Positions 8,287-63,879 of a stretch of 64,000 bases of DNA are shown piece after piece (position 1 is the first letter of the stretch; each line of letters starts with the position of its first letter). Under the pieces are notes generated by a model, which did no database searches, was not told the DNA's origin, and saw only the letters and a list, made by a program, of their open reading frames with translations. The stretch comes from Camelus ferus. Taxonomy: Eukaryota. A program made the position numbers and the translations under genes. The stretch is from the NCBI RefSeq assembly GCF_009834535.1, contig NC_045696.1, forward strand, positions 88,104,001-88,168,000, read 5' to 3'.

Positions 8287-8423
8287 AATTTTCTTAAATT
8301 AAAATATAGTCGATTTACAATGTTAATTTCTGGTGCACAGCACGGTCATTCATTTATATAATATACACAGATATTCCTTTTCATATTCTTTTTCATTATA
8401 GACCATTAAGGCATTAAACATAG
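8287..8423 (-). mobile_element. 5'-truncated camelid-type L1 3' end
   Basis: Reverse complement of the 3'UTR at 30640-30790; near-identical flanking repeat tgct(t)cccc(c)ttttta. Confidence 0.8.
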
Positions 8424-9036: not shown

Positions 9037-9291
9037 TTGAGATGTGCAAAGGTTATCCACTATATATTAAAATAGATAAAAAGCAAATTTCTTCTGTATA
9101 GCACAGGGAACTATATTCAATGTCTTGTAATTACCTTTAATGAAAAAGAATATGAGGGCAAATGCATGTGTATAGATGCATGACTGGGACATTGTGCTGT
9201 ACACCAGAAATTGACACACTGTAACTAACTATAATTGAATTGTTTTAAGTAAAAAAAAAAAAAAAAAAAAAAAACTTTAAATAAATAAAAA
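9037..9291 (+). mobile_element. 5'-truncated camelid-type L1 3' end with poly(A)
   Basis: ctgtatagcacagggaactatattcaa 3'UTR motif; A-tail; 17-bp TSD tgaatagcaact(t/c)actc at 9020-9036 and 9292-9308. Confidence 0.9.
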
Positions 9292-12106: not shown

Positions 12107-12402
12107 CCAGAAATATACTCACGGACATAGAAAACAAACAGTGGTTACCAGCAGAAAAAGGCAAGGGAAGGGATAGGTTACCAGTTTGGGATTAACAGAT
12201 ACACAGTACTATATACAAAATAGATAAACAACAAGGACCTGCTGTATAGCACAGGGAACTACATTCAATTACTTGTAATGAGCTGTAATGGAAAAGAAAT
12301 TGAATATATATGTATGTATATGTATAACTGAATCACTTTGCTGTACACCTGAAACTAACATGGTAAATTGACTGCACTTCAATAAAAAATAAGAATTTTT
12401 AA
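12107..12402 (+). mobile_element. 5'-truncated camelid-type L1 3' end
   Basis: actcacggacatagaaaacaaa...ctgtatagcacagggaactac...cttcaataaaaaat; 16-bp TSD aat(t/g)tactggtttgtt at 12091-12106 and 12403-12418. Confidence 0.9.
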
Positions 12403-24780: not shown

Positions 24781-25096
24781 AAGAGAAATGAGAGTAAATG
24801 CTGAAATGATGCAGACTTTTCTAAGCTTTTAATGAACACACTAAAAATAAAATTTAAATAATACTTCAACAAGTTTTTAATAAAACTATTAAGGTACTTG
24901 GCATAAGCAGAAAAGTGAAAGATATAAAACTGAATGTATATTATGTCAACTTTATCAAACAAAATGTTTTTAAAAATTGAAGGAAAATATAGGAAAGGTT
25001 AACGATGGTTGATTTTGAGGAGCGTTATTTCTATGCTACATTTTTCCATTTTTCTTAATTTTTCCAAAATTAACTAATTTTATAATAATTTCTCTA

Positions 25097-25443
25097 AAAT
25101 ACCACATGATATCACTTATCTGTGGAATCTATAAAAAAAGACAAATGAACTTATTTACAAAACAGAAACAGACTCACAGGCATTGAAAACAAACTTATGG
25201 TTACTGAGGGGGGAGGGTGGGAAGGGATAAACTGGGAGTTTAAGATCTGAAGATACTAATATATATACATAATAGATAAACTACAAGTTTATACTGTAGA
25301 GCACAGGGAGCCATATTCAATATCTTGTAGTAGCCTATGGTGAAAAAAATATGAGAATGAATGTTGTATGTTCTTATGTAACTGAAGTTATTGTGCTGTA
25401 CACCAGAAATTGACACACTGTAAACTGACTACAATTTTTAAAA
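25097..25443 (+). mobile_element. 5'-truncated camelid-type L1 3' end
   Basis: Aligns by eye with 30425-30790 (aaatacca...tatcacttat.tgtggaatcta...acagactcacag...ctgtacaccagaaattgacaca). Confidence 0.9.
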
Positions 25444-25451
25444 AGTCTTAA

Positions 25452-25530
25452 AAGAGAAGAAAGTTGAAAAGAAGAGAAAGGAAAGAGGAAAGAAAGAAAG
25501 AAACAGGACAGAGGAAGAGAAAGAAGGTAG
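25452..25530. repeat. Purine-rich (GA/GAAA) low-complexity tract
   Basis: Direct inspection. Confidence 0.7.
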
Positions 25531-25958
25531 GGATGGTGGAAGGCAAGATCTGCCCGCCAGAGTGTGGGAATCACCAATCAAAGCATGTGCACACAGAACC
25601 CAGAACAGGACCTCAATTACAGGAGATTACAGCACTCCAGGCCTCAACTGTTTTCTAGTATTTTACATATGAAAAGTTCTATTTATGTTTGCTCTCTATA
25701 AGCAAAAAAAGTGTTTGTGTTTTTTTAAATAACTAAACAAAAGACATTGCATCTTCACAACTTGTGACACTTGCTACCTCATAAATATTTGTCTTTTCTC
25801 TGGGGTGATGTTACAGTGTGAATGAAAACTCTTCCCTGTGGGAAAGAGAAATCAGAACTTATATTATTAGAAAAGAAAAATGTGGACAGGCTAATGTTTG
25901 CAGACTGGGGATGCCATTAACCATAAACTTTATCTGAAATAAATGTGTGGGGACTTTT

Positions 25959-25967
25959 CAAGATGGC
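25959..25967 (+). promoter_or_regulatory. YY1 motif of the L1 internal promoter
   Basis: CAAGATGGC about 10 nt from the element 5' end, the canonical L1 position. Confidence 0.7.
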
Positions 25968-26849
25968 AGAGTAGAAGGACCCTCTTAGCTCACCCTCTCC
26001 CACAAATACACCAAGAGTGACATCCACGGACCCACCCACCAATCAGAACACCTGCTGAACTTTGACAGAATATTGCCTTCTTCAAAAGATAAAATTTTCC
26101 ACAAATCTGGTAGGAGAAAAGGAGAAAAGAAGAAAAAGGAAAATAGTGCGGGAGTGGTACCATGGGAAGGGAGTGGCAAAGGAGGAATGACACATATACA
26201 CTGGGTCTCCCCCTCTCCAACAAAGAGGTAAGCAGGACGGAAGGGGAACCTCTGAGGCTCAGATCCATACAGAATAGCCCTTGACTGACAGAACTAAGTT
26301 AAAGGGGCACAAAGGGTCCCTGCGACCCCCAGCCTGAGACGTGAACCAGCAGGGGTGGGACAGGACAGGCTGCCTGAGCTGGGCAGAGGACTCGGGTTGA
26401 CTGTACAGAGGCAACCTTGGGGGACTGCAGTACGCTGTGCATACTAGGAGGGTACACAGATCAGAACAGCGTGTGTCCCCGATGAAATACAAAAAAAAAG
26501 CAAAGCAACACTGCCGGTATGCACTGGGGGGAGGGGCGCAGTGACCTTTGTCTCCATAGACCTAAGGCACTGTTATTGGTGCATTTGGGAGGAGAGAGAT
26601 TGGGCTCAGCCACAGCCACCATATTCTCTGGTGTGAGGCTCCCAGGCAGAGGTGGGGTCGAAACCTGAATCCTTACCTAGGGGCTCAGCAACTTCACAGG
26701 CGGGACGGAGATTTGTTTACAGCCCCCGGCAGAGGGAACCATTCTGCCCTGGTGTCTGTGAACTTGTGCCTCTAAGATAAGCAGGAGTGGAGCTCTGGCA
26801 CAGAGCAGGGGGGAGGGCTGATGCGGCTGTTTTCCACAGGCCTGCCTAA

Positions 26850-27260
26850 CAGAGCGCGGACCGTCGCAGGGCCGGAGCGGCATTGAATGGGTGAGCAAGA
26901 CACCCACCTACCTTGCACAAGCCCCGCGGGTAGATGCTGCATTGGGAGAGGCCGCCACCCGCCTGCCTACTGTGTACCATGGCGGCGCCAGAACTTCCGC
27001 ATCAGGGCGGGGGTGTGGTGAGGGGAGCAGCACCCGCCCACCTACTCACCACAAGCGCGGCGCCGGAATGTGACGTCAGGAGGGGCCAGACTAGCCAGCC
27101 TACCAGCACTGGGAGCAACACAGACCAGGGCGCGACGGGAGGGCCTCTGAAACCAGTGAGCGGGATTTCGTGCAGCGGGACAAGGGCAGAAGCAGCGACA
27201 ACCACAGAACAAAAAGGAGGCCCCACTTAATAGCCAGGGCAGGCTCTGGCTGCCACGCAC
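26850..27260. promoter_or_regulatory. CpG-dense segment of outer L1 5'UTR with a full CRE (TGACGTCA, 27071-27078)
   Basis: Many intact CpGs (gagcgcggaccgtcgc, ggcggcgcc, aagcgcggcgccgg, ggcgcgacgg). Confidence 0.55.
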
Positions 27261-29057
27261 TGGTCACACCCTCAACCAAAGGGATAACAGACAAAAGGCA
27301 CAGAAGGAAGACTTGGCAACCACCCATACTTAAAAGGACCTCTTAACAAAATTATTAAGAATGCAGTCTCCACAGGAACACATCCACTTTTTTTTTAATT
27401 TTTAATTTTTAAAAATTTTATAATTTTTTAATCCCTTTTAAAATTTTTTTTAAATTTTTATTAATTTTTAAAATTTGTTTCAATTTGATTTTTATTTCTC
27501 ATTTTGTTCTGTTATTAATTATAGTTTTTAAATCTTTTTTCTTCTTTAAAAAATTTTTTTAGTTTTATTTCCACATCCACTTTCAATAAATAAATAAATA
27601 CGTAAACCCACTCAGAACCACAGTAGATAACTGATACTCCATAATCCATAGTGCCAGAGAGATATAAGTAAAATGAAGTAGAGGAACCACTCCCAATTAA
27701 AAGAACAAGAGGAAAGGAAGCAAGATGGTGGAGTAGAAGGACGCTTGTAGCTCACCCTCTCCCACAAATACACCAAAACTTGTATCTATGGACCTACTCA
27801 GCCAACCAGAGCACCTGCTGAACTTCAACAGAACATCGCCGTCTTCGAAAGACAAATACCCCAAAAACCTGGTAGGAGAAAAGGAAAAAAGAAAGAAGAA
27901 AAAGCAAAACAGTGTGGGACCAAACCCGCGGGGAGGGAGCAGCAAAGGAGAACTGGCGCTCGTTCACTGGGTACCCCCTCTCCAACAGAGAGGCCAGCAG
28001 GACGGAGGGGGAGCTCCGAGGCTCAGATCTGCCCAGAGCACTCCTTGACCAACAGAACTGAGTTAAACAGGCACAAAATGTCCCCGCAACACGCAGCCCG
28101 AGACACGAGCTGGCAGCTGGGGCAGGGACAGGCAGCCTGAGCCAGGCGGAGGACTGGGGCGGCTGCACTGAGACAGCCTCAGGGGACTGCAGGGGGCTGT
28201 ACACCATGGCTGGGAGGGAATATGGAGCAGAACAACCTCAGTCCCCCATAAATTGCAAAAAAAGCAAAGCAGCATGGCTAGTGTGCCCTGGGGCGAGTGG
28301 TGCCATAGCCTTTGTCCCCTCAGACCTGCACCACCATTACTGGTACTTCTCGTGAGAACAGAGGCGGGGTGCAGCCACAGCTGCCATCTCCTCCTGTGTG
28401 CAGCACCTGGGCGGGGGAGGGGCTGAGACCTGAATCCGCACCCGGGGGCTCCGCAACCTCCTAGGCAGGACTGAGACTTGTTTACAACCCAAGGCAGATA
28501 GGATCTTTCTGCCCTGGTCCCTCAGAGAACTTGCTCTGCCAAGACAAACAAGGAGCTGAGAACTGGCATGGAACAGGGGTGGGGCCATTCCATAGTCTTC
28601 TGTGAGCCCGCCTTTGGAGCGCCAACCAGAGGCGGAGTGGGCAGCTGCACAGAGCAGCAGAGCAACTGGAGCCCAGAAAGGGTGAGCAGCCCCCCCCCCC
28701 CCGCCTTCCTGGCAGGAACGCAGCACCTGACCACAGTGCTGGGAGCGGGTGCGATCCGCCCACCTGCCTCGCCCAAGCGCAACATCTGACTGTGGCATCA
28801 GGAGGGGGAGTGACCTGCCCACCCACCAGGTAAGAGCTCGGCACCTGACCCAGTGTTGGGAGGGGGCACAGTCTGCTAGCCAACAGCCACTGGGAGCAGC
28901 ACAGACAAGGGCGCCAACAGAGGGCCTCTGGAAACAGCAAGCTGAGTACGCAAAATGGGGCGAAGACACAAAGACCTCTTGATAAAATCATTAAGAGCAC
29001 ACCATCTCCAGGAGAACTAGATAACTGATACTCCTTAAGCCACAGTGCCAGAGAGAT

Positions 29058-29953
29058 ATGAGCAGTGTGGAGAAGCAGAGGAACCACTCCCAATTAGAAG
29101 ATCAAGAGAAATCCCCTAAGAGCACGATCAAGGAAATAGACATGGATGGACTACTAGATCAAGATTTCAAAAAAGGAGTGATCAAAGTACTGAAGGAACT
29201 AAAAGAAATAGTGTTTAGAGATATAAAATATGTCAAAAATGAAATAGAAACTATAAAGAAGAACCAAGTAGAATTAGTAAACTCGTTTGCTGAGATGAGA
29301 GCTGACCTGAAGGCTGTACAAAACAGTCTGGAAAATGCAGAAGAGCAAATGGGTGACTTGGAGGATGGGACAGCGGAGAGCACCCAATCAGAACAGCTGA
29401 GAGAAAAACAAATAAGAAACAATGAGGGCAAAATAGGGGACCTATGGGATAGTATAGAGCGTGCTGGTCTACGCATGGTGGGGGTTCCAGAGGGGGAGGA
29501 GAGAGCAGAGGGGATTGGGAGAATATTTGGGGAAATCATGACTGAAAACTTCCCAAACCTAAGGAAGTCAGATGTCCAGGTGCAGGAGGCTCAGAGCATC
29601 CCAAACAGGAGGTGCCCAGGCAGACCCACACCAAGACATATCATAATCAAGATGGCCAGATTCAAGGATAAAGAGATGGTCCTGAAGGCAGCAGGAGAAA
29701 GACAATGAGTTACAAGGGAACCCCCATGGGGCTCTCAGCTGATTTCTCTGCACAGACACTGCAGGCCAGAGGAGAGTGGCAAGATGTATTCAAGGTCCTG
29801 AATGAAGAGGGGATGCAGCCTGGGATACTCTATCCGGCAAGGCTATCCTTTGGAATGGAGGGAGGGATAGGGAACTTCACAGACAAGCAAAAACTAAAAG
29901 AGTTTAGCAACACTAAACCCATGCTAAAAGAAATACTGACAGGTCTACTCTAA
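29058..29953 (+). pseudogene. ORF1: L1 ORF1p (RNA-binding/chaperone), frameshifted at ~29705
   Basis: ORFs 29058-29708 and 29705-29953 join into ORF1p: coiled coil, GVPEGEE, ENFPNL, RPTPRHIIIK, LSADFS, LYPARLSF, KLKEF...LKEIL.GLL. Confidence 0.93.
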
Positions 29954-30096
29954 ATAGAAAAGAAGCAGGATGCTACAAAAATGAGAAACTCATAACTGGA
30001 AAGGAGATAACTGCCATGAATTACAAAAAGAATAAACACAAAATTGTAAAAGAAGACATCTAAATCATTAAGAGTGGGAGAGGAAAGCAAGGAAAG

Positions 30097-30459
30097 CCAC
30101 TGTGGAAAACAGTATGGAGATTCCTCAAAAGACTAGGAATAGACTTACCATATGACCCAGGAATCCCACTCCTGGGCATATATCCAGAAGGAACCCTACT
30201 TCAAAATGACACCTGCACCCCAATGTTCATAGCAGCACTGTTTACAATAGCCAAGACATGGAAACAGCCTAAATGTCCATCAACAGATGACTGAACAAAG
30301 AAGATGTGGTATATTTACATGATGGGATACTATTCAGCCACAAAAATCATAACACCATTTGCAGCAACATGGATGTTCCTGGAGAATGTCATTCTAAGTG
30401 AAGTAAGCCAGAAAGAGAAAGAAAAATACCATGTGATATCACTTATATGTGGAATCTAA
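30097..30459 (+). pseudogene. ORF2: L1 ORF2p C-terminal remnant
   Basis: Translates PLWKTVWRFLKRLGIDLPYDPGIPLLGIYP...MFIAALFTIAKTWKQPKCP..., internal TGA at 30292, ends SLICGI-stop. Confidence 0.9.
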
Positions 30460-32351
30460 AAAAAAGACAAATGAACTTATTTACAAAACAGAAACAGACT
30501 CACAGACATAGAAAACAAACTTATGGTTACCAGGGGGGAAGAGGGTGGGAATGGATAAACTGGGAGTTTGAGATTTGCAGATATATATAAAAATATATAT
30601 ATCTGACTAATATATATAAAATAGATAAGCAAGTTTATACTGTATAGCACAGGGAACTATATCAATATCTTGTAGTAGCTTACGGTGAAAATGAATATGA
30701 AAATGAATGTATGTATATTCATGTATGACTGAAGCATTGTGCTGTACATCAGAAATTGACACATTATAAACTGACTATACCTCAATTTAAAAAATGTGAT
30801 ATTGATGAATAAAACAGATGAAAGAAAGCACTTTTGAATTTATGTATTTGTTCTACCCAGAAACTTTTTTTAACCTGCCAATACATTCATGCAGTTGACA
30901 TTTTACAAACCTAGAAAATTAGAAGTCAATGATCCAGCCATGTCATTTCATATTGATTAGTGTGTTCTACACCAGAGATTTCCATCCTTTTTTCCCCCCA
31001 GATCCTTTGACAGAAGCATGGCTACACTGAAGTCACTCCCCAGAAGGCTACACTGTAGAGCCTATAAATAGAGAAAGCATTCCCAGCAAAATGCAGCCAA
31101 AACAAGGCTTCTTTGTATGCGGTCGAGCCAACTGCAGCTCTGTTGCACTACTGGGTTATAAAAATATATTTCATTTTTATTATTTAGCACTGCAGTGCAA
31201 TAGGAGCTTGGGACTACACTCAGCATCATTTAATTTTACTTGAGAACACTTCAGATTGGAATTGGAAAATCACATTCAACTTAATATTTCACCATTTGCT
31301 TGTACTATTTTCATTTTTCCTTTAGGAGAGGAAAAAAACTAAAGTTATATATTCAAATAATTGTAGCAATATCTTTAAAAGTGAGATTAAAAAAAACAAA
31401 GCTGTTTATTGTTCTGCTCAATGTTTTAGGTCGAAGTAGCTTTCTTGATATATAGGGGCATGTTTTTTTTCTATTAAGTATGGGACTTAGATATATTTTT
31501 CTAATCAGCCCTGCCAAGTACTAGATCCTAAACGGGAAAAGTATTAAGGAAATATACAAATGTTTACTATATGACTGATACAGGTAGAGAAAAGCTGAGG
31601 CTGAAGTGAATTATTTAGAATGTATTTAGTTTAAAACACAAGGCCAGCCTAGAGAACAATTTGTTTACAACCAGAATACCACTTAAACTTATCTTACTAT
31701 TTAAAGAAATCCTCCAAAAAGATGTTCTGACTGACTGCATTTTAATAAATGTTACAGTACAAATTTATTAGGAATTTTAAGTCCATGGTGGAGGTGTTCC
31801 AGCTTCTTTAAATTGACATTAAAGGAGACAAGAAAATCCTCCTCTTGGGACCCGGATAGGATTTCAACTCATGGTTGAAAGGTCTAAAACTAAACGAATA
31901 ATAAACTCTCTTGTTGAATCCAGGACCCTATATAATACAGCTTAATATAAAAAGTGGTTTCTCTGTGCAATCAATAAGAAACATTAATCCTTTCCACTTG
32001 AGTGCCAGAAGTTTGCCAAGTCCAAGAAGTGAAAAGAAATTTACTCTAAATAATTAAATTCATTTTTATTCTTCAAGAGATAATATACTAGGTTCATAAT
32101 ATAGAAAAGAATTCTAAATTTGATCACTTGGAACATGCACTGGAGGGAGAGAAGAAAAAGCTAGTTTAAATAACTAAACAGCCCAATAATTGTTTTTTTC
32201 TTCCTCATATAAACCTCATATTGTATTCAACTGATCTTTTCTTTGAGAGAATGGCTAAAAAAAGAAGAAAAGAGATCTTTGTAACATGAATTTTCTTAAC
32301 AAATCAGAATCAGTCTTACAGTCTCCTTTTTCAAGGAAATGTTTTTATTTA

Positions 32352-40315: not shown

Positions 40316-40376
40316 CAGATGAGAAATATTTCTATCTTTACTTACAGATGAGAAATATTTCTATCTTTACTTACAG
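40316..40376. repeat. Perfect 29-bp tandem duplication
   Basis: cagatgagaaatatttctatctttactta twice, followed by cag. Confidence 0.95.
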
Positions 40377-43313: not shown

Positions 43314-43436
43314 CACACACACACCACACACACACCCCTACAGAGTACACCTACATACATACACACACCACACACATACCTCTACATACTCGCCTACATA
43401 CCTACACAACCACACACACACCCTTACATACACAAA
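43314..43436. repeat. Degenerate (CA)-rich low-complexity tract
   Basis: Direct inspection. Confidence 0.85.
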
Positions 43437-45117: not shown

Positions 45118-45781
45118 GCCTTGCCAATATTTATGCTTTCCTCCACATTGAAGCCACATGCTTCTAGCAAAAAAAGTGTTTTAGAGACCAATTTGATCAA
45201 GGGGAATCACACAAATAAAAACAACTGGGAAAGCCAGAGAGAAGAGGCAGAAGAAGAGAGAAAGAGAAAGAAAGGGAAAGGAAAGGGAAGTGAGATCCCA
45301 GGTCTGGGCATCCTGCCACAGCCCCTGCTGCCATCTGATAACCCCTCCGATTTTCATCCAGCCTTCAAACCAGCTCATCTGCAAAGTGAGGAGAAGTCAA
45401 GGGCCTGTATCCGTCGCCAGCGAGACAAGCAAGGGAGGACCAACATAAATTTCCAATGATGACAGCTCAGGAAAGAATCTGCTGACAATTCTGTGTTCCC
45501 TTGATGAGCACAGCTCACATGACTGGTGGCCTGGCTGTCTTAAGGACATTGAGGTGATTTTCTGGCTTTCTAACACATCAGCTGGGTGCCAGGGGAATCA
45601 CAACCACTCTGGCACAACCTGGCCCACCACAGGGGACCTTGGCCAAGTCCCAGAGGGCAATGTTCTTGGGAATTGATGGCAGGAGGTGGAGGTCTTGCTG
45701 ATGAGACCTGTGTATCCTGTGACTGCAGCCACAGCCAGGCACCTGGGCTGCTGCATAAACCTGCTCAGCTGGTCCTGAAGC

Positions 45782-45811
45782 CATGCGCGCGCGCGCGCGC
45801 ACACACACACA
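45782..45811. repeat. (GC)8(AC)5 alternating purine-pyrimidine tract
   Basis: catgcgcgcgcgcgcgcgcacacacacaca. Confidence 0.95.
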
Positions 45812-48800
45812 GCTCCGGCCAGCACAGGCCTCTGCCAGGGATCTGGCCGGCAAGGAAAGCTGCTGCCATCAGCTTTCCCAAATGTTCCTTTTTGTAAGGG
45901 CAGAAGGTGGGGTGAGAGGGGAAACCACAGCTTCCTGAAAATCTGGGGCTTTTTCCAGAGCATTCAGTACCCTGAGGGAGGCCTGGTGCAAGTGTCCAGC
46001 TCATTTCTCATTCCCTGTTGAAATGCCATCAGGGCCCCACAGTTCTGAGCATGGCGATGGCCCCTCAGAGATTGGGGTGATGTCACTACTGTGGCAGTTT
46101 CCCCACATGTTGTCAAGCCGGCATTTGGGAGGTGACGGAGACTGTGCAGGAGGTCCCCATAGTGGTGGTGTCCCCCTCTGGGAATTGTCCTGTCCTTTCT
46201 GGAATGCAGCCAGGCTAGATACAAAGTTCCCTAACCCTCAGCTGGGCTGGATCTGTCAAGTGTGGACAATGGGGCCAGCAGGGAGGTACTGGTAGGGGAG
46301 GGGCCAGGCAGGTGAGTGGAGCTGTTGAGGGTGGGGACAGCAGAAGAGGTGCTTGGAGGAGCTGGCACAACCCCAGGAACACAGGGTAGAGGAACCTAGA
46401 AGCATCCATCAGCAGGAAGGGGAGAGAGGCTCTTTCTGAGCCAAAGCAGCTGGCCAACTGTGTTTCCTACATGAGGCAGAAGGCAGATGCAGCCGGGCTG
46501 TGGCCAAGCTCTGAGCCCAACAGCTGCCCTACACTGCCCCGCTCCGGGCTTGGGGTGGGGGTGGGGGCCCATCACTTCTACAGACAGCCAAACACAGCCA
46601 GGAGTGGGCATGTTTCTCAGCATGGTCCCCAGCACAAAAGACAACAATAGCCATTTAGACCTTTAAAAATCCTTCCCCTTCTGACTGGCGCAGCTGAAAA
46701 AGCAAACTGCTGAATAGGATACCAAGTTCTTCTGAGGTCTGGTGTTCATCCTTTCTCTTACTGGGTATTCTAAATTCTCCCCATGGAAAAAGATGACCAG
46801 AGTACCCCGTTCCCCATAGACAGATAGTGAGAGCAGGGCAGGTAGTGACCATGAGCTGGACTGAATGTATTCATCAAGGTCAGAGAGCAAGTGCTGGAAA
46901 CTCTCCTCTCTGCCAGCAAGTCATCATTTCTCCAGAGCCACAAAATGCTCTGCTGTTTCCTGGCCCCATGAAGACAGGACATGTGCGCAGGACTAGGATA
47001 TATACACACAGCTGCAGAGCAGAGTTTCAAGCAAAGCCTATCCAGAGCATTTCTCATATTCAGTCATCAGGGACTTGAGGTATTTCCGTTTTCCAAGAAA
47101 AGAGGTAAAGGTGTGAGCTGGGAGAATGTGTACCCAGACAAATACATGCAAAATGGTGCACCTTCTTAATGACAAGAATTATGCCCTGCCTCAGCAGTCA
47201 TGTGAGCCTGGGGGTTAAAGCAGTGCCAGTCACAGCCAGAGATAAAGAGATAAAGGCCCAACGACCCCCTTTGTCCAGGCTGCGAGGGAATTCTGCTGCC
47301 TTGCCTCAGTCTGACATCAGTGGGCAGAGATCATACGGCTGAAAGCTCGTAAAAATAGCCTTCGCTCCTGGCTCTGTTTTCTAATTCAGTGAGAAAAAGA
47401 TAATGCAGGGATGTTTCCAGAGGCTCCATCACTGGCTTATATAACTGGTTTTGACAGAAAACTCTCCTTCAATCCACCAGCTCACTGAACTCTGTGAGAT
47501 TAATACAGAACAGGTAAACACTGATGTTAGATCGCCGAGGATCACTTGCTTTGGCTGGTTGTTTTGTTTTGTTCCCGTGGCTATAGCGTTTCTTTCTTCA
47601 GTTCTCATTTGCTTTTCTTTTCAAAAACCCTAATATGGCATTAGAAAATGCCTCCTAAAAAAACTGTTCTGTTCAAGGAAAACACAAGTCAGTCTTACAT
47701 CATTATAGAACATCTGTGGAAACTCGAAAGTTGGGTAGAAAATGATCTCCCGTTTCTAACCTCATTTTCTCTGTCTTTAAGTTTACCCCTAGTCAGTTGA
47801 GTATCCACCTGGGAGAAAATCCATTGTTAGGTAATAATACTGAGCTGCATGGCATCTGCCCAGAGGACTGTTCAAAGTTGGGTTAAGGGTGAGAAGATCG
47901 GTGAAGTGAGGTGAGACAATTTAGAGCTGGAGGAAATCAAACACAGAAAAGCAGGCATTTCCAGACCTCTCTGGTCCTAATGGACCGAGCAGTGTGGGAA
48001 GGGCATCTTTAACATCAGGAATGAGATTATGGAAAACCAGTCATGATTTCCGAAGCAGAACAGGGAGGCTGGGTTTGGGAAGAAGTGCCAAGAGGTGAAC
48101 ACACCGTCCACGTCTGTTACTAACTTGCATCAGATCCACCTGACGTAGGAGGTTCTAAAAGATTCTCAGCGTCTACTCCAAATTACTGAGCAAGATGTCT
48201 CAAGATCACCATTACAGAACCCTGTTCTAGATGGTAAAAAGAGAAAGGCATGTCTCTTCCTCAAATAAATCTCTAAGCCACGACCCTGACAATCTGAAAT
48301 CATTTCTATTCAAGTAAAGACCAGTTTGGAAAAACTCTATGCTTTTCCACGAAATATATTTAGGTATTAATCTGACATTTTTCCACAAGTCCCCTTTTTA
48401 CACTCTTCTCTATCCAAGTGTCACAGCCACTCCTTGATGTGGTCCTTTCAAGTCAGTCTTCATCTCTCAGCTGTTTATCCCTTCATTTTCCTTAGGCAGA
48501 TAATCAGAGTACCTGTCAATCCACCAGGCGGGAAATCATTCAGAAGAAACACTGAAAATAGAGGTGTTGTCTGCTCTCCCGAGGGATGAGAAGAACAAAG
48601 GTTAAACAACGCCACCCCCGCCGTCCACGCGTCCTGTCTCTGATACAAGTGCAGTGGCTCTAAAAGGCACTCGAGGGGACTTATAAATTGTGGAGTAGGG
48701 CTTCCCCTGACACAGCAAATCCAGCTGCCTTTTCTAACCACAGGGCATCTGTGCTTGTTCGTATCTTAAAAGCTCTCGTCTTCCATAAACAGGTGAATAC

Positions 48801-52796: not shown

Positions 52797-52903
52797 AGAA
52801 GGAAGGGAGGGAGGGAGGAAGGGAGGAAGGGAGGAAGGAAAGAAAGAAAGAAAGAAAGGGAGGGAGGGAGGGAGGAAGGAAGGAAGGAAGGAAGAAAAAA
52901 AGA
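52797..52903. repeat. Pure-purine (GGAA/GGGA/GAAA)n microsatellite
   Basis: About 105 nt without a pyrimidine on the + strand. Confidence 0.95.
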
Positions 52904-53750: not shown

Positions 53751-54162
53751 ATTGCTTTCTTATATGCAGAAGCACTGTTCTCAAAACAGAGTCCTAAGAG
53801 TTATTCAGATTCTTCCATATTTCATAGCCAAGTATCCCAGTAGATACAATAAAACGGTATTATACTCAAAGCAGGCTAATTTACTGCCTTAACTGATTTG
53901 ATTAGTTGTGTCAAAGCAAAGAATCCAAGTTACTCTAGCAAAAAAAAATTATAATTATATATATATACTATATATATACATAGTTGTTAGACTGAATCAT
54001 TCAAATTATGTTGCGACTTCCAGATAATCTGACTAGCATCTGACTAGTTTGACCAATAAAGCCAGTAACAATAGACTATTCCACTTGCACACAAAGAAAA
54101 ACAGCAATAGTCTAAGTTTCCCAGAGCATTTTAACATTGATCTCAGATACTGATGAGAACAA

Positions 54163-54231
54163 CTTTTTTTTAATTGAGGTATAGCTAATTTGCAATGTTG
54201 TGTTAGTTTCTGGTGTACAGCAAAGTAATTC

Positions 54232-54309
<78 letters not shown>

Positions 54310-54887
54310 TTTTTCATTATAGGTTATTACAAGTTTCCTGAATATAGTTCCCTGTGCTATACAGTAGGACCTTCTTGTTTACCTATTTTATATATAGTAG
54401 TTTATACATGCTAACCCCAAACTCCTAATTTATCCCTTCCCCCTCTTTCCCCTTTGGTAACCATAAGTTGTTTTTCTAAGTCTAGGAGTCTGTTTCTATT
54501 TTATATATAGATTCATTTGCATTATTTTTTAGATTCCATGTATAAGTGATATGATATTTGTCTTTCTCTGACTCACTTCACTTGGTATGATAATCTCTAG
54601 ATCCATCCATGTTGCTGAAAATGGCATTATTTCATTCTTTCATATGGCTGAGTAATATAACACATTGTATATATATACCATATCTACTTAAACCAGTCGT
54701 TTGTTGATGGGCATTTGGTTTGTTTCCATGTCTTTTCTCTTGTAAGTAGTGCTGCTATGAACATTGGGGTACACAGATATTTTTGAATTAGAATTTGTCT
54801 TTTCTGGATATATGCCTAGGGATAGGATTGCTGGATCATATAGTAGCTCTATTTTTAGTTTTTTAAGGAATCTCTATACCGTTTTCC
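54163..54887 (-). mobile_element. 5'-truncated camelid-type L1 (ORF2 end and 3'UTR)
   Basis: Reverse complement of 30100-30790-type sequence (atatagttccctgtgctatacag; ttttagttttttaaggaatctc...gttttcca). Confidence 0.9.
54235..54306. repeat. (TA)36 perfect microsatellite inside an L1 3'UTR
   Basis: Direct count. Confidence 0.95.
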
Positions 54888-55079
54888 AGAACAGTCATTT
54901 TAAACTCAACACCAGACATGGTCTTTCACAACTACAGAATCTGAACAGGGCTTTCAGAGAGACTGAAAGTAATGACAGAAGCTTTCCTCTTCGTATTAAC
55001 ACAAGACTTCTCTAATAGCAATGTTGTCATCATTTTTTTTTAACTAAGAATGATCCTTAAGGTAAATGAGTCTCTTTTC

Positions 55080-55687: not shown

Positions 55688-56361
55688 GTATTCATTTTCT
55701 ATTGCTGTTACAAATTATCAAAAATTTAGTGGCTTAGAACACAAATTTATTACAGCAACACAATTACAACTCTGGAGGTCAGAAGTCTAAAATCAAAGTG
55801 TCAGCAGGTCCGAATTCCTTCTGGAGGCTCCCTTTCCAGCTTCTAGAGACTATTTCCTTGCCTTTTCTAGTTTCTGGAGGCCACCTCCCTACCTCAGGTC
55901 ATGGCCTGTTCCTGCCATCAATCTGAACTCTGCTTCTGTCATCACATTTTTTCTGCCTCTGATCCTCCTGCCTCTCTCTTATGAGGACACTTACGATTAC
56001 AGTGGGCCTACGTGGGTAACCCATGATAATCTCCCACATCCTTAATTTATATTAACTACTATATATAAAAATAGATAAAAAACAAATTTCTTCTGTATAA
56101 CACAGGCAACTATATTTGATATCTTGTAATAATCTTTAATGAAAAAGAATATGAAAGCAAATATATGTCTGTATATGTATGACTGGGACATTGTGCGGTA
56201 CACTGGAAATTGACATATTGTAACTGACTGTACTTCAATTTAAAAAAATCCTTAATTTGATCATGTCCTCACAGTCCCTTTTGCTGGTAAGATAACATAT
56301 TCACAGGTTCCAGGGATTAGGACTTGAGTATCTTTGGGAGGTCACTATCCTGTCTACCACA
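55688..56361 (-). mobile_element. MaLR solo LTR (MLT1C/D-like)
   Basis: tctggaggtcagaagtctaaaatcaaagtgtcagcagg...taacatattcacaggttccagggattaggac...ctaccaca. Confidence 0.85.
56049..56247 (+). mobile_element. Camelid-type L1 3' end nested in the MLT1 LTR
   Basis: Same 3'UTR type as 9037-9291; perfect 11-bp TSD atccttaattt at 56038-56048 and 56248-56258. Confidence 0.92.
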
Positions 56362-60849: not shown

Positions 60850-61530
60850 GTTAAAAATTGTTAAGGATAAAATAACGTGTTGGTGAGGATATAGAAATTA
60901 GAACACTTGTATACTGCTGGTGGAGATGTAATATGGTACAGCCACCATGGAAAACAGTATGGTGTTTACTAAAAATTAAACATAGAATTACCATAGGATC
61001 CAACAATTCCACTTCTGGGTTGAAAAGTTCACTTCTAAATTGAACCCAGGGCTGCCAAAAGGTGGAAGCAACCCAAGTGTCCAACCCAATTCATTGACAG
61101 ATGAATGGATAAACAAAATATGGCATATGCATACAATAGACTATTATACACCCTTAAAAGAAGGCAATTCTAACACACGCTACAACACAGATGAACCCTG
61201 AAGATATTTCACTAGGTGAAATAAACCGGCACAAAAGACCAAATGCTGTATGATTCAACTTATATGAGCTGCCTAGTATAGTCAAACTCATAGACAGAAA
61301 ACAGAATAGTGGTCACTAGAGACTGGGAGGAGGAGAAATAGGAAGTTCTTGTTTAATAAAGACAGTTTCAGTTTGGCAAGATGAAGAGAGACCTGGACAT
61401 AGGTTATGGTGATAGTTGCACAACGTGAACATACATAATGTCACTGAACCGTACACTTTAAAATGGTTAAAATGGTAAACTTTTGTTGTGTAACACATAT
61501 TTTCCATAACTTATAAACAAATAAACATTT
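60850..61530 (+). mobile_element. L1MB-type 3' end
   Basis: gtgttggtgaggatatagaaattagaacact...ggtggaagcaacccaagtgtcc...acagtttcagtttggcaagatgaa...gtacactttaaaatggttaaaatggtaaac. Confidence 0.88.
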
Positions 61531-63829: not shown

Positions 63830-63879
63830 AAAAGTGGTATGGTAGCTAAGATGATAAAAGTGGTATGGTAGCTAAGATG
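63830..63879. repeat. 26-bp-period tandem duplication
   Basis: aaaagtggtatggtagctaagatg(at) twice. Confidence 0.95.

What the first reader, a model, noticed from the sequence alone, without database searches (positions are those of the whole stretch)
25941..30798. Composite L1 with two tandem 5'UTR promoters that appears to have inserted as one unit
Seen: a complete L1 5'UTR (25949) runs ~50 nt into ORF1 and is fused directly at 27710/27711 to the very 5' end of a second, diverged L1. No remainder of the outer element's ORF1 follows the inner 3' end, and no TSD brackets the inner element (aagaacaagag is not repeated after 30791). The whole unit is bracketed by aaatgtg (25941-25947 and 30792-30798; 9/10 if extended to aa(t/a)aaatgtg) at an A-rich L1-endonuclease-like site. 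Established: L1 lineages repeatedly acquire new 5'UTRs, and L1 RT can switch templates. Inference: either an RT template switch between two L1 RNAs, or a copy of a double-promoter non-autonomous family, i.e. a snapshot of 5'UTR recruitment. The TSD is short, so chance is not excluded.
Basis: partly seen in the sequence, partly recalled or inferred. Interest (0 to 1): 0.7.

Follow-up and report, generated by a model that had tools for sequence, protein, structure and literature searches.

The report
Nested, RNA-edited camelid L1 fossil
A dead jumping-gene copy in a camel-family genome is one LINE-1 element inserted just behind the promoter of another, and half a kilobase of it carries a dense one-stranded run of A-to-G changes that looks like the mark of an RNA-editing enzyme acting before the RNA was copied into the genome.

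Summary
The anatomy is as described: a whole L1 5'UTR plus 16 codons of ORF1, then a second L1 from its first base, all inside a 7-nt duplication (chance under 1%). (1) A perfect endonuclease site, TT|AAAA, lies 13 nt before the inner 5' end, which points to ordinary nested insertion rather than a template switch. (2) All of ORF2 but its last ~120 codons is gone. (3) Inner ORF1 29351-29871 is A>G hypermutated: 39 of 135 scoreable A against 0 of 40 T>C, mostly after A or T (34/70 against 5/65), the ADAR pattern. The outer duplication cannot show a single insertion, since it may be the outer L1's own. Read-through of a nested donor with re-retrotransposition (0.42) and nesting here plus one deletion (0.38) are nearly tied; template switch 0.12. 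Copy number and the orthologous site were not tested: no genome is held and no reads were laid. This scan noted an A>G-hypermutated L1 before, on other DNA (e1-8045548); I found none in print in ten open-access searches.

The parts
25941..25947 (+). Left copy of the 7-nt target-site duplication around the whole unit; site reads AT|AAAT, two mismatches from TT|AAAA
   Evidence: chance 0.09-0.76%
25949..27663 (+). Outer L1 5'UTR, complete from its 5' end, GC-rich, CpG o/e 0.40 in 25949-27380
   Evidence: 73-75% to inner UTR
27391..27571 (.). T-rich tract inside the outer UTR, bounded by an exact 12-nt direct repeat at 27379 and 27572; not in the inner UTR
27664..27711 (+). First 16 codons of outer ORF1 (start codon lost, one stop); N-terminus of the P0002/P0003 type (MKK..KEQE)
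   Evidence: 87% to inner ORF1 start
27697..27711 (+). Canonical L1 endonuclease site TT|AAAA (27697-27702); 27699-27711 is the inferred 5' copy of the inner element's own 12-13-nt duplication, whose 3' copy is absent
   Evidence: null; role is inference
27711..29057 (+). Inner L1 5'UTR, complete from its 5' end, another subfamily, CpG o/e 0.33
29058..29953 (+). Inner ORF1, broken by a frameshift near 29705; PF02994 and PF17490; closest relative P0001 (77%)
29351..29871 (+). A>G hypermutated tract on the sense strand, ADAR-like neighbour preference
29954..30096 (+). Start of the ORF1-ORF2 spacer, ending at the deletion junction (AG shared by both sides, inferred)
30097..30459 (+). Last ~120 codons of ORF2 (one stop); 83-87% to four proteins named LINE-1 ORF2 of Camelus dromedarius; not hypermutated (2 of 80)
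30460..30791 (+). 3'UTR and short A tail; 89% to the truncated copy at 25096-25431
30792..30798 (+). Right copy of the 7-nt duplication

Best explanation
A dead camelid L1 built in steps. Step 1 (inferred, about 0.8): a full-length L1 of one subfamily inserted by normal target-primed reverse transcription at TT|AAAA just after the ORF1 start of an L1 of a related subfamily, same strand. Step 2 (pattern shown, enzyme inferred, about 0.85): on an RNA carrying the inner ORF1, about 520 nt were double-stranded and ADAR turned roughly 3 in 10 adenosines into inosine; reverse transcription fixed these as G. Step 3 (inferred, the weak link): the nesting happened at a donor locus elsewhere; the outer promoter read through the inner element to its poly(A) end, and this composite RNA was retrotransposed here as a 5' transduction, so it carries a new 7-nt duplication, the left half of the old one at the internal junction, and nothing of the donor beyond the inner 3' end. 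ORF2 was lost by a short-homology jump during reverse transcription, by splicing, or by later deletion. Editing may date from either round of retrotransposition.
For: Perfect endonuclease site 13 nt upstream of an intact inner 5' end; 7-20 nt is the usual duplication length (PMC13756887 passage); chance 2.5% in the window and 4.3% in the outer part. Whole unit bracketed by a non-random duplication. No inner 3' duplication and no outer remainder. The two UTRs show equal CpG decay (15 against 16 sites), so the outer promoter was not much older than the inner element. 5' transduction of L1 is known though rare (PMC4859970 passage). Editing: 38 of 52 amino-acid differences from the majority of the five closest relatives need only A>G; whole ORF1 43 of 231 A>G against 0 of 82 T>C; tract 39/135 against 0/40, p=1.6e-5, and 24/96 against 0/33 on unanimous columns; 5' neighbour T 11/21, A 23/49, C 0/22, G 5/43, as in the ADAR order U>A>C>G (PMC3113232 passages); the five relatives treated alike show 1-6 such changes against 25 here.
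Against: No donor locus or second copy was seen; none could be sought in camelid DNA (scans gave no camelid L1 DNA). It needs a separate event for ORF2 loss, which the in-place deletion rival gets free. The tail could not be assigned to the inner or the outer subfamily (tree unresolved; no linking protein). The editing counts rest on proteins, not DNA, on five unnamed relatives, with only two covering the part after 29711; the tract limits were chosen. C precedes 0 of 22 edits, fewer than G, which departs from the ADAR order and may partly reflect CpG decay. No complementary partner for the tract lies in the window (best E 0.34). Synonymous third positions shift only modestly (G 47/93 against 22/65, p=0.05). 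Two AATAAA in the outer UTR (27585, 27593) could cut read-through short.
Confidence: 0.42

Rival explanations
1. Nesting at this locus, then deletion. The outer L1 inserted here (its duplication is the 7-mer), the A>G-edited inner L1 inserted into it, and one deletion of roughly 9 kb joined the inner spacer to the outer ORF2 tail; or an already shortened inner copy recombined with the outer tail. One locus, no composite RNA, no promoter recruitment.
For: Same endonuclease site and duplication. One deletion explains the missing ORF2, the missing inner 3' duplication and the missing outer body together. All edits lie left of the deletion junction (tail 2 of 80).
Against: The junction is out of homologous register with about 2 nt of overlap, although two direct L1 copies would favour in-register exchange (inference). 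The unedited tail does not differ from unedited parts of inner ORF1 (4 of 96; p=0.69), so it is no sign of separate origin. A nested target is usually older than the insert, yet CpG decay is equal.
Confidence: 0.38
2. Template switch: the reverse transcriptase reached the 5' end of the inner RNA and jumped to an RNA of the outer subfamily 48 nt into ORF1.
For: Junction at the exact inner 5' end with 1-3 nt of overlap; one duplication around all; similar ages; strand switching is a proposed route of L1 mosaicism (PMC3600994 section 11).
Against: Does not predict TT|AAAA 7-20 nt upstream (2.5-4% strict, 7-9% relaxed). A jump would more readily land in homologous register.
Confidence: 0.12
3. Insertion-mediated deletion: the inner L1 primed in the outer element's A tail and its 5' end joined at the outer ORF1 start, removing the outer body; or one of the junctions is an assembly error.
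For: Insertions with deletions and no duplication are tabulated in PMC4859970. Public runs hold only 58-70% of the stretch's words, and junctions were not checked in reads.
Against: Needs both ends to fall at special points of the outer element and leaves the endonuclease site unexplained; assembly collapse should occur in homologous register, not at a 5' end or a 2-nt overlap.
Confidence: 0.08
4. For the A>G tract only: an error-prone DNA polymerase (pol eta, whose WA-to-WG bias I recall, not checked here) filled the second strand, or the G-rich ORF1 is a trait of an unsampled subfamily.
For: The WA preference fits; only five close relatives were available.
Against: Half of the WA sites changed (34 of 70) while other changes stay at background (6 of 160 codons), too dense and too pure for a polymerase as I recall it; the five closest relatives share 0-1 of the changed residues, many of which hit columns conserved out to pig and horse.
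Confidence: 0.12

Closest known systems
L1 5' transduction (PMC4859970, passages)
   Same: Transcription starts upstream of an L1 and the upstream DNA is carried inside the new duplication.
   Different: Here the upstream DNA is itself a complete L1 promoter of a sister subfamily; donor not found, so not shown.
Nested L1-in-L1 insertion with later deletion (PMC13756887 mentions nested LINE-1 variants; otherwise recalled)
   Same: Endonuclease site and half duplication at the inner 5' end; outer duplication around all.
   Different: Inner 3' duplication and outer body are missing.
L1 5'UTR recruitment and mosaic families (PMC3600994 section 11)
   Same: Two subfamilies joined near the UTR/ORF1 border.
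   Different: The old UTR is kept, the join is out of register, the product is dead; nesting plus read-through is not among the three mechanisms listed there.
HAL1 (half-L1) (PMC5753468, PMC13756887, passages)
   Same: 5'UTR, ORF1 and 3' end without most of ORF2.
   Different: ORF1 is broken and hypermutated, an ORF2 remnant is kept, and no multi-copy family is shown.
ADAR hyperediting of avian retroviral sequences (PMC12925331, passage) and APOBEC DNA editing of LTR elements (PMC4866542, PMC2873906, passages)
   Same: A dense cluster of one substitution on one strand, fixed by reverse transcription.
   Different: A>G rather than G>A; a non-LTR element fixed in the germ line. [quoted passage not shown]

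Membership tests
Mammalian LINE-1 copy | ORF1p domains and ORF2p homology | tested here: met
   PF02994 E 4e-15, PF17490 E 2e-20; tail 83-87% to camel-named ORF2 proteins
Mammalian LINE-1 copy | A tail and target-site duplication | tested here: met
   7-nt duplication, chance under 1%; A tail short
Autonomous L1 | Intact ORF1 and ORF2 | tested here: not met
   ORF1 frameshift, ORF2 reduced to ~120 codons with a stop
Nested TPRT insertion | Endonuclease site 7-20 nt before the inner 5' end | tested here: met
   TTAAAA at 27697; null 2.5-4.3%
Nested TPRT insertion | Second copy of the inner duplication and resumption of the host element | tested here: not met
   both leading models explain its loss
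5' transduction | Upstream sequence inside the new duplication | tested here: met
   also predicted by the deletion rival
5' transduction | Donor locus with the same junction | not testable with these tools
   no genome held; no reads laid
Non-autonomous family (HAL1-like or double-promoter) | Many copies sharing the junctions | tested here: inconclusive
   Protein level only: none of 10 aligned tail hits (of 120 listed, 6323 found) carries the spacer-derived N-terminus; closest ORF1s lack the edits. The library holds few camelid L1 proteins.
HAL1 | Encodes a working ORF1p only | tested here: not met
   ORF1 frameshifted and hypermutated in this copy
ADAR-hyperedited RNA | Cluster of A>G on one strand without the mirror change | tested here: met
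   39/135 against 0/40 T>C; protein-inferred
ADAR-hyperedited RNA | 5' neighbour U or A preferred, G avoided | tested here: met
   34/70 against 5/65, p=1e-7; against G alone 5/43, p=4e-5; same direction at codon positions 1 and 2
ADAR-hyperedited RNA | A double-stranded partner for the tract | tested here: inconclusive
   none in the window; source locus unknown
Template-switch chimera | No genomic donor; junction without endonuclease signature | tested here: inconclusive
   signature present; donor untestable

The most novel reading that the evidence does not exclude
This is the retrotransposed, ADAR-hyperedited RNA of a nested L1 donor. It would show both a fourth route by which an L1 gains an upstream promoter (insert behind another L1's UTR, be read through, move as a unit) and a germ-line fossil of ADAR mutating L1 coding RNA heavily enough to wreck ORF1, one of a class that genome screens for G>A editing did not look for.
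Probability: 0.33. Interest if true: 0.72.

Novelty: new variant of a known kind. Interest (0 to 1): 0.55.

Why it matters
The double promoter alone is a modest curiosity: each route to it uses known L1 behaviour. The A>G tract matters more. A review says a role for ADAR editing in suppressing retrotransposons by mutation had not been determined (for Alu; PMC4982230), and another that editing does not appear to explain ADAR1's inhibition of L1 (PMC12925331). A fixed L1 copy with about 3 in 10 adenosines changed over 520 nt would be direct evidence that edited L1 RNA is reverse transcribed in the germ line, and it defines a simple screen (A>G clusters against family copies, T>C as mirror control) that makes the question testable in any genome. 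If a nested donor is found, the locus also documents a route to promoter acquisition not among the three listed in PMC3600994.

Tried and rejected
No whole genome is held, so no copy counts. Cluster look-up for the five closest ORF1 relatives could not be made; their species is unknown. Scans for camelid L1 DNA found nothing usable: metagenome contigs 2 weak loci at 33-34%, viral contigs 1 at 39% and 0, prokaryote genomes 0. Twenty runs from 9 studies and 4 organism labels hold 58-70% of the words of 25460-31600; none was laid, so this says nothing on junctions, copy number or the empty site. A search for long proteins linking an ORF1 type to an ORF2 type gave 2 hits, neither useful. A tree of the tail with 7 camel-named and 5 other proteins left the camel group unresolved; the ORF1 tree failed on a label error and was not rerun. 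A>G excess was sought and not found in the inner UTR against the outer (52 A>G, 46 G>A), in the tail and before the tract (4 of 77). One of those four (29067) is shared with P0001 and is a family trait. Biased gene conversion rejected: no T>C. APOBEC editing rejected: wrong direction. Splicing as the cause of ORF2 loss is open: the junction reads AAG|CCA and an older copy at 60940 has CAG before the homologous point, but the donor side is unknown. Rfam: 0 matches in the window. Earlier-findings look-ups by sequence, place and composite-structure words gave nothing. The HAL1 paper is not held and the supplements of the camel TE paper PMC8605555, which may hold family sequences, could not be read.
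Full report
Observation. The window holds, on the + strand, a 7-nt repeat at 25941 and 30792 around two homologous L1 5'UTRs starting at 25949 and 27711 (73.7% over 867 nt; 75% of aligned columns). The outer one runs into 16 codons of ORF1 (27664-27711). The 13-mer before the junction does not recur after the element and no outer remainder follows. A flank match as good as the 7-mer arose in 0.09% of random draws, 0.76% given an A-rich left flank. The lineage is camelid on protein evidence: the four best hits of the ORF2 remnant are named Camelus dromedarius, 83-87%; named pig ORF1 hits are 46-48%.

Homologues read LVQ|PLWK there, and an older copy in the window has CAG before that point, so about two letters are shared by both sides. 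Second: TTAAAA at 27697-27702 puts a perfect endonuclease cut 13 nt before the inner 5' end, within the usual 7-20-nt duplication length (PMC13756887, passages). A random point has such a site so placed in 2.5% of the window and 4.3% of the outer part, 7-9% with relaxed motifs. This is what a normal insertion of the inner L1 into the outer one leaves.

Third: the inner ORF1 is hypermutated. Against the majority residue of the five closest of 22 relatives, 270 codons could be scored; 52 differ and 38 of these need only A>G. Over the whole ORF 43 of 231 scoreable A changed and 0 of 82 T. The changes cluster in 29351-29871 (limits chosen after seeing the data): 39 of 135 A>G, 0 of 40 T>C, 3 of 61 G>A, 0 of 48 C>T; before the tract 4 of 77, after it 0 of 19; on unanimous columns 24 of 96; against P0001 alone 26 of 97 and P0002 alone 40 of 135. 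The five relatives, each against the others, show 1-6 changes of this type where the window shows 25, and they share at most 1 of the changed residues; distant relatives share up to 7 of 34. Edited A follow T in 11 of 21, A in 23 of 49, C in 0 of 22 and G in 5 of 43 cases; A/T against C/G p=1e-7, against G alone p=4e-5. Human ADARs prefer U>A>C>G at the 5' side (PMC3113232, passages). The lack after C may partly be CpG decay. No 3' preference is significant. The tail is not edited (2 of 80), nor is there an excess in the inner UTR. I infer that about 520 nt of an L1 RNA were duplexed and deaminated before reverse transcription. No partner strand is in the window.

How the unit arose. The outer duplication does not show a single insertion: if the inner L1 landed in an outer L1 here and a deletion joined inner spacer to outer tail, the outer duplication would remain and relatives lacking the element would still show one clean empty site. 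That model explains ORF2 loss at no extra cost, but needs a long out-of-register deletion. The other model puts the nesting at a donor locus; the outer promoter reads through, and the composite RNA moves as a 5' transduction, a known but rare L1 outcome (PMC4859970, passages). It explains the half duplication at the internal junction, the new outer duplication and the missing remainder, and fits the equal CpG decay of the two UTRs (15 against 16 sites), but needs ORF2 to be lost separately. The outer ORF1 start resembles P0002/P0003 and pig in keeping MKK, the inner resembles P0001, in keeping with a derived subfamily landing in a more ancestral one. Which subfamily owns the tail would decide much; a tree left it unresolved and no protein linked the types. 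I put read-through at 0.42, in-place deletion at 0.38, template switch at 0.12, insertion-mediated deletion or assembly error at 0.08; these are judgements, not computed.

What could not be tested. No genome is held. Twenty public runs from 9 studies hold 58-70% of the stretch's words, but no reads were laid, so copy number, the donor, the orthologous site and the physical continuity of the junctions are open. Scans of metagenome, viral and prokaryote collections gave no camelid L1 DNA.

Comparison with what is known. It works like a nested insertion followed by 5' transduction or deletion; it is not an autonomous L1 and is not shown to be a HAL1 or any family (HAL1 definition from PMC5753468 and PMC13756887, passages). 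PMC3600994 (passages and section 11) lists three routes to mosaic L1s; nesting with read-through is not among them. G>A editing of LTR elements is documented genome-wide (PMC4866542, passages: no mention of ADAR in the main text; PMC2873906, passages). ADAR-type hypermutation is reported for two avian retroviruses, and editing is said not to explain ADAR1's effect on L1 (PMC12925331, passages). PMC8605555 (passages; supplements unavailable) gave no camelid L1 subfamily detail in the passages shown. Ten searches of the open-access library (listings only, apart from the papers named) showed no report of an A>G-hyperedited genomic L1 copy or of a double-promoter camelid L1; subscription papers are not covered, so this is weak evidence of novelty. 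This scan has one earlier, unchecked note of an A>G-hypermutated L1 in another genome (e1-8045548); I had reached that reading before seeing it and did not test that note.

Verdict. A real, dead composite L1. The promoter story is weaker than proposed and undecided; the A>G tract is the stronger and more surprising result. New variant of a known kind; interest 0.55.

Noticed in passing
window 27379-27600: The T-rich tract of the outer UTR is bounded by an exact 12-nt direct repeat (27379, 27572), like an antisense poly(A)-type insertion with its own duplication; the inner UTR lacks it; two AATAAA follow at 27585 and 27593. Unknown whether family-wide.
   Followed up: partly
window 25096-25431: A 5'-truncated 3' end of the same L1 group (89% to the unit's tail) lies about 510 nt upstream on the same strand.
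   Followed up: partly
window 30095-30099: The ORF2-loss junction reads AAG|CCA with CAG expected upstream on the ORF2 side, which would fit a splice junction if the spacer continues with GT.
   Followed up: partly
window 8290-8395(-), 9061-9241, 12108-12390, 54162-54888(-), 56045-56247, 60940-61019: Older L1 3' fragments, 69-79% to the tail.
   Followed up: no
window 45501-47000: GC-rich stretch (0.51-0.57) that does not match the L1 UTRs; possibly a promoter region.
   Followed up: no
window 40316-40376, 43317-43431, 52798-52894, 54235-54307, 63830-63879: Short tandem duplications and microsatellites, two of them exact two-copy repeats of 29 and 26 nt.
   Followed up: no
one search runs X1-X20: Even the best runs hold only 70% of the stretch's words; cause unknown (repeat fragmentation, filtering, a sister species, or a part missing).
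   Followed up: no
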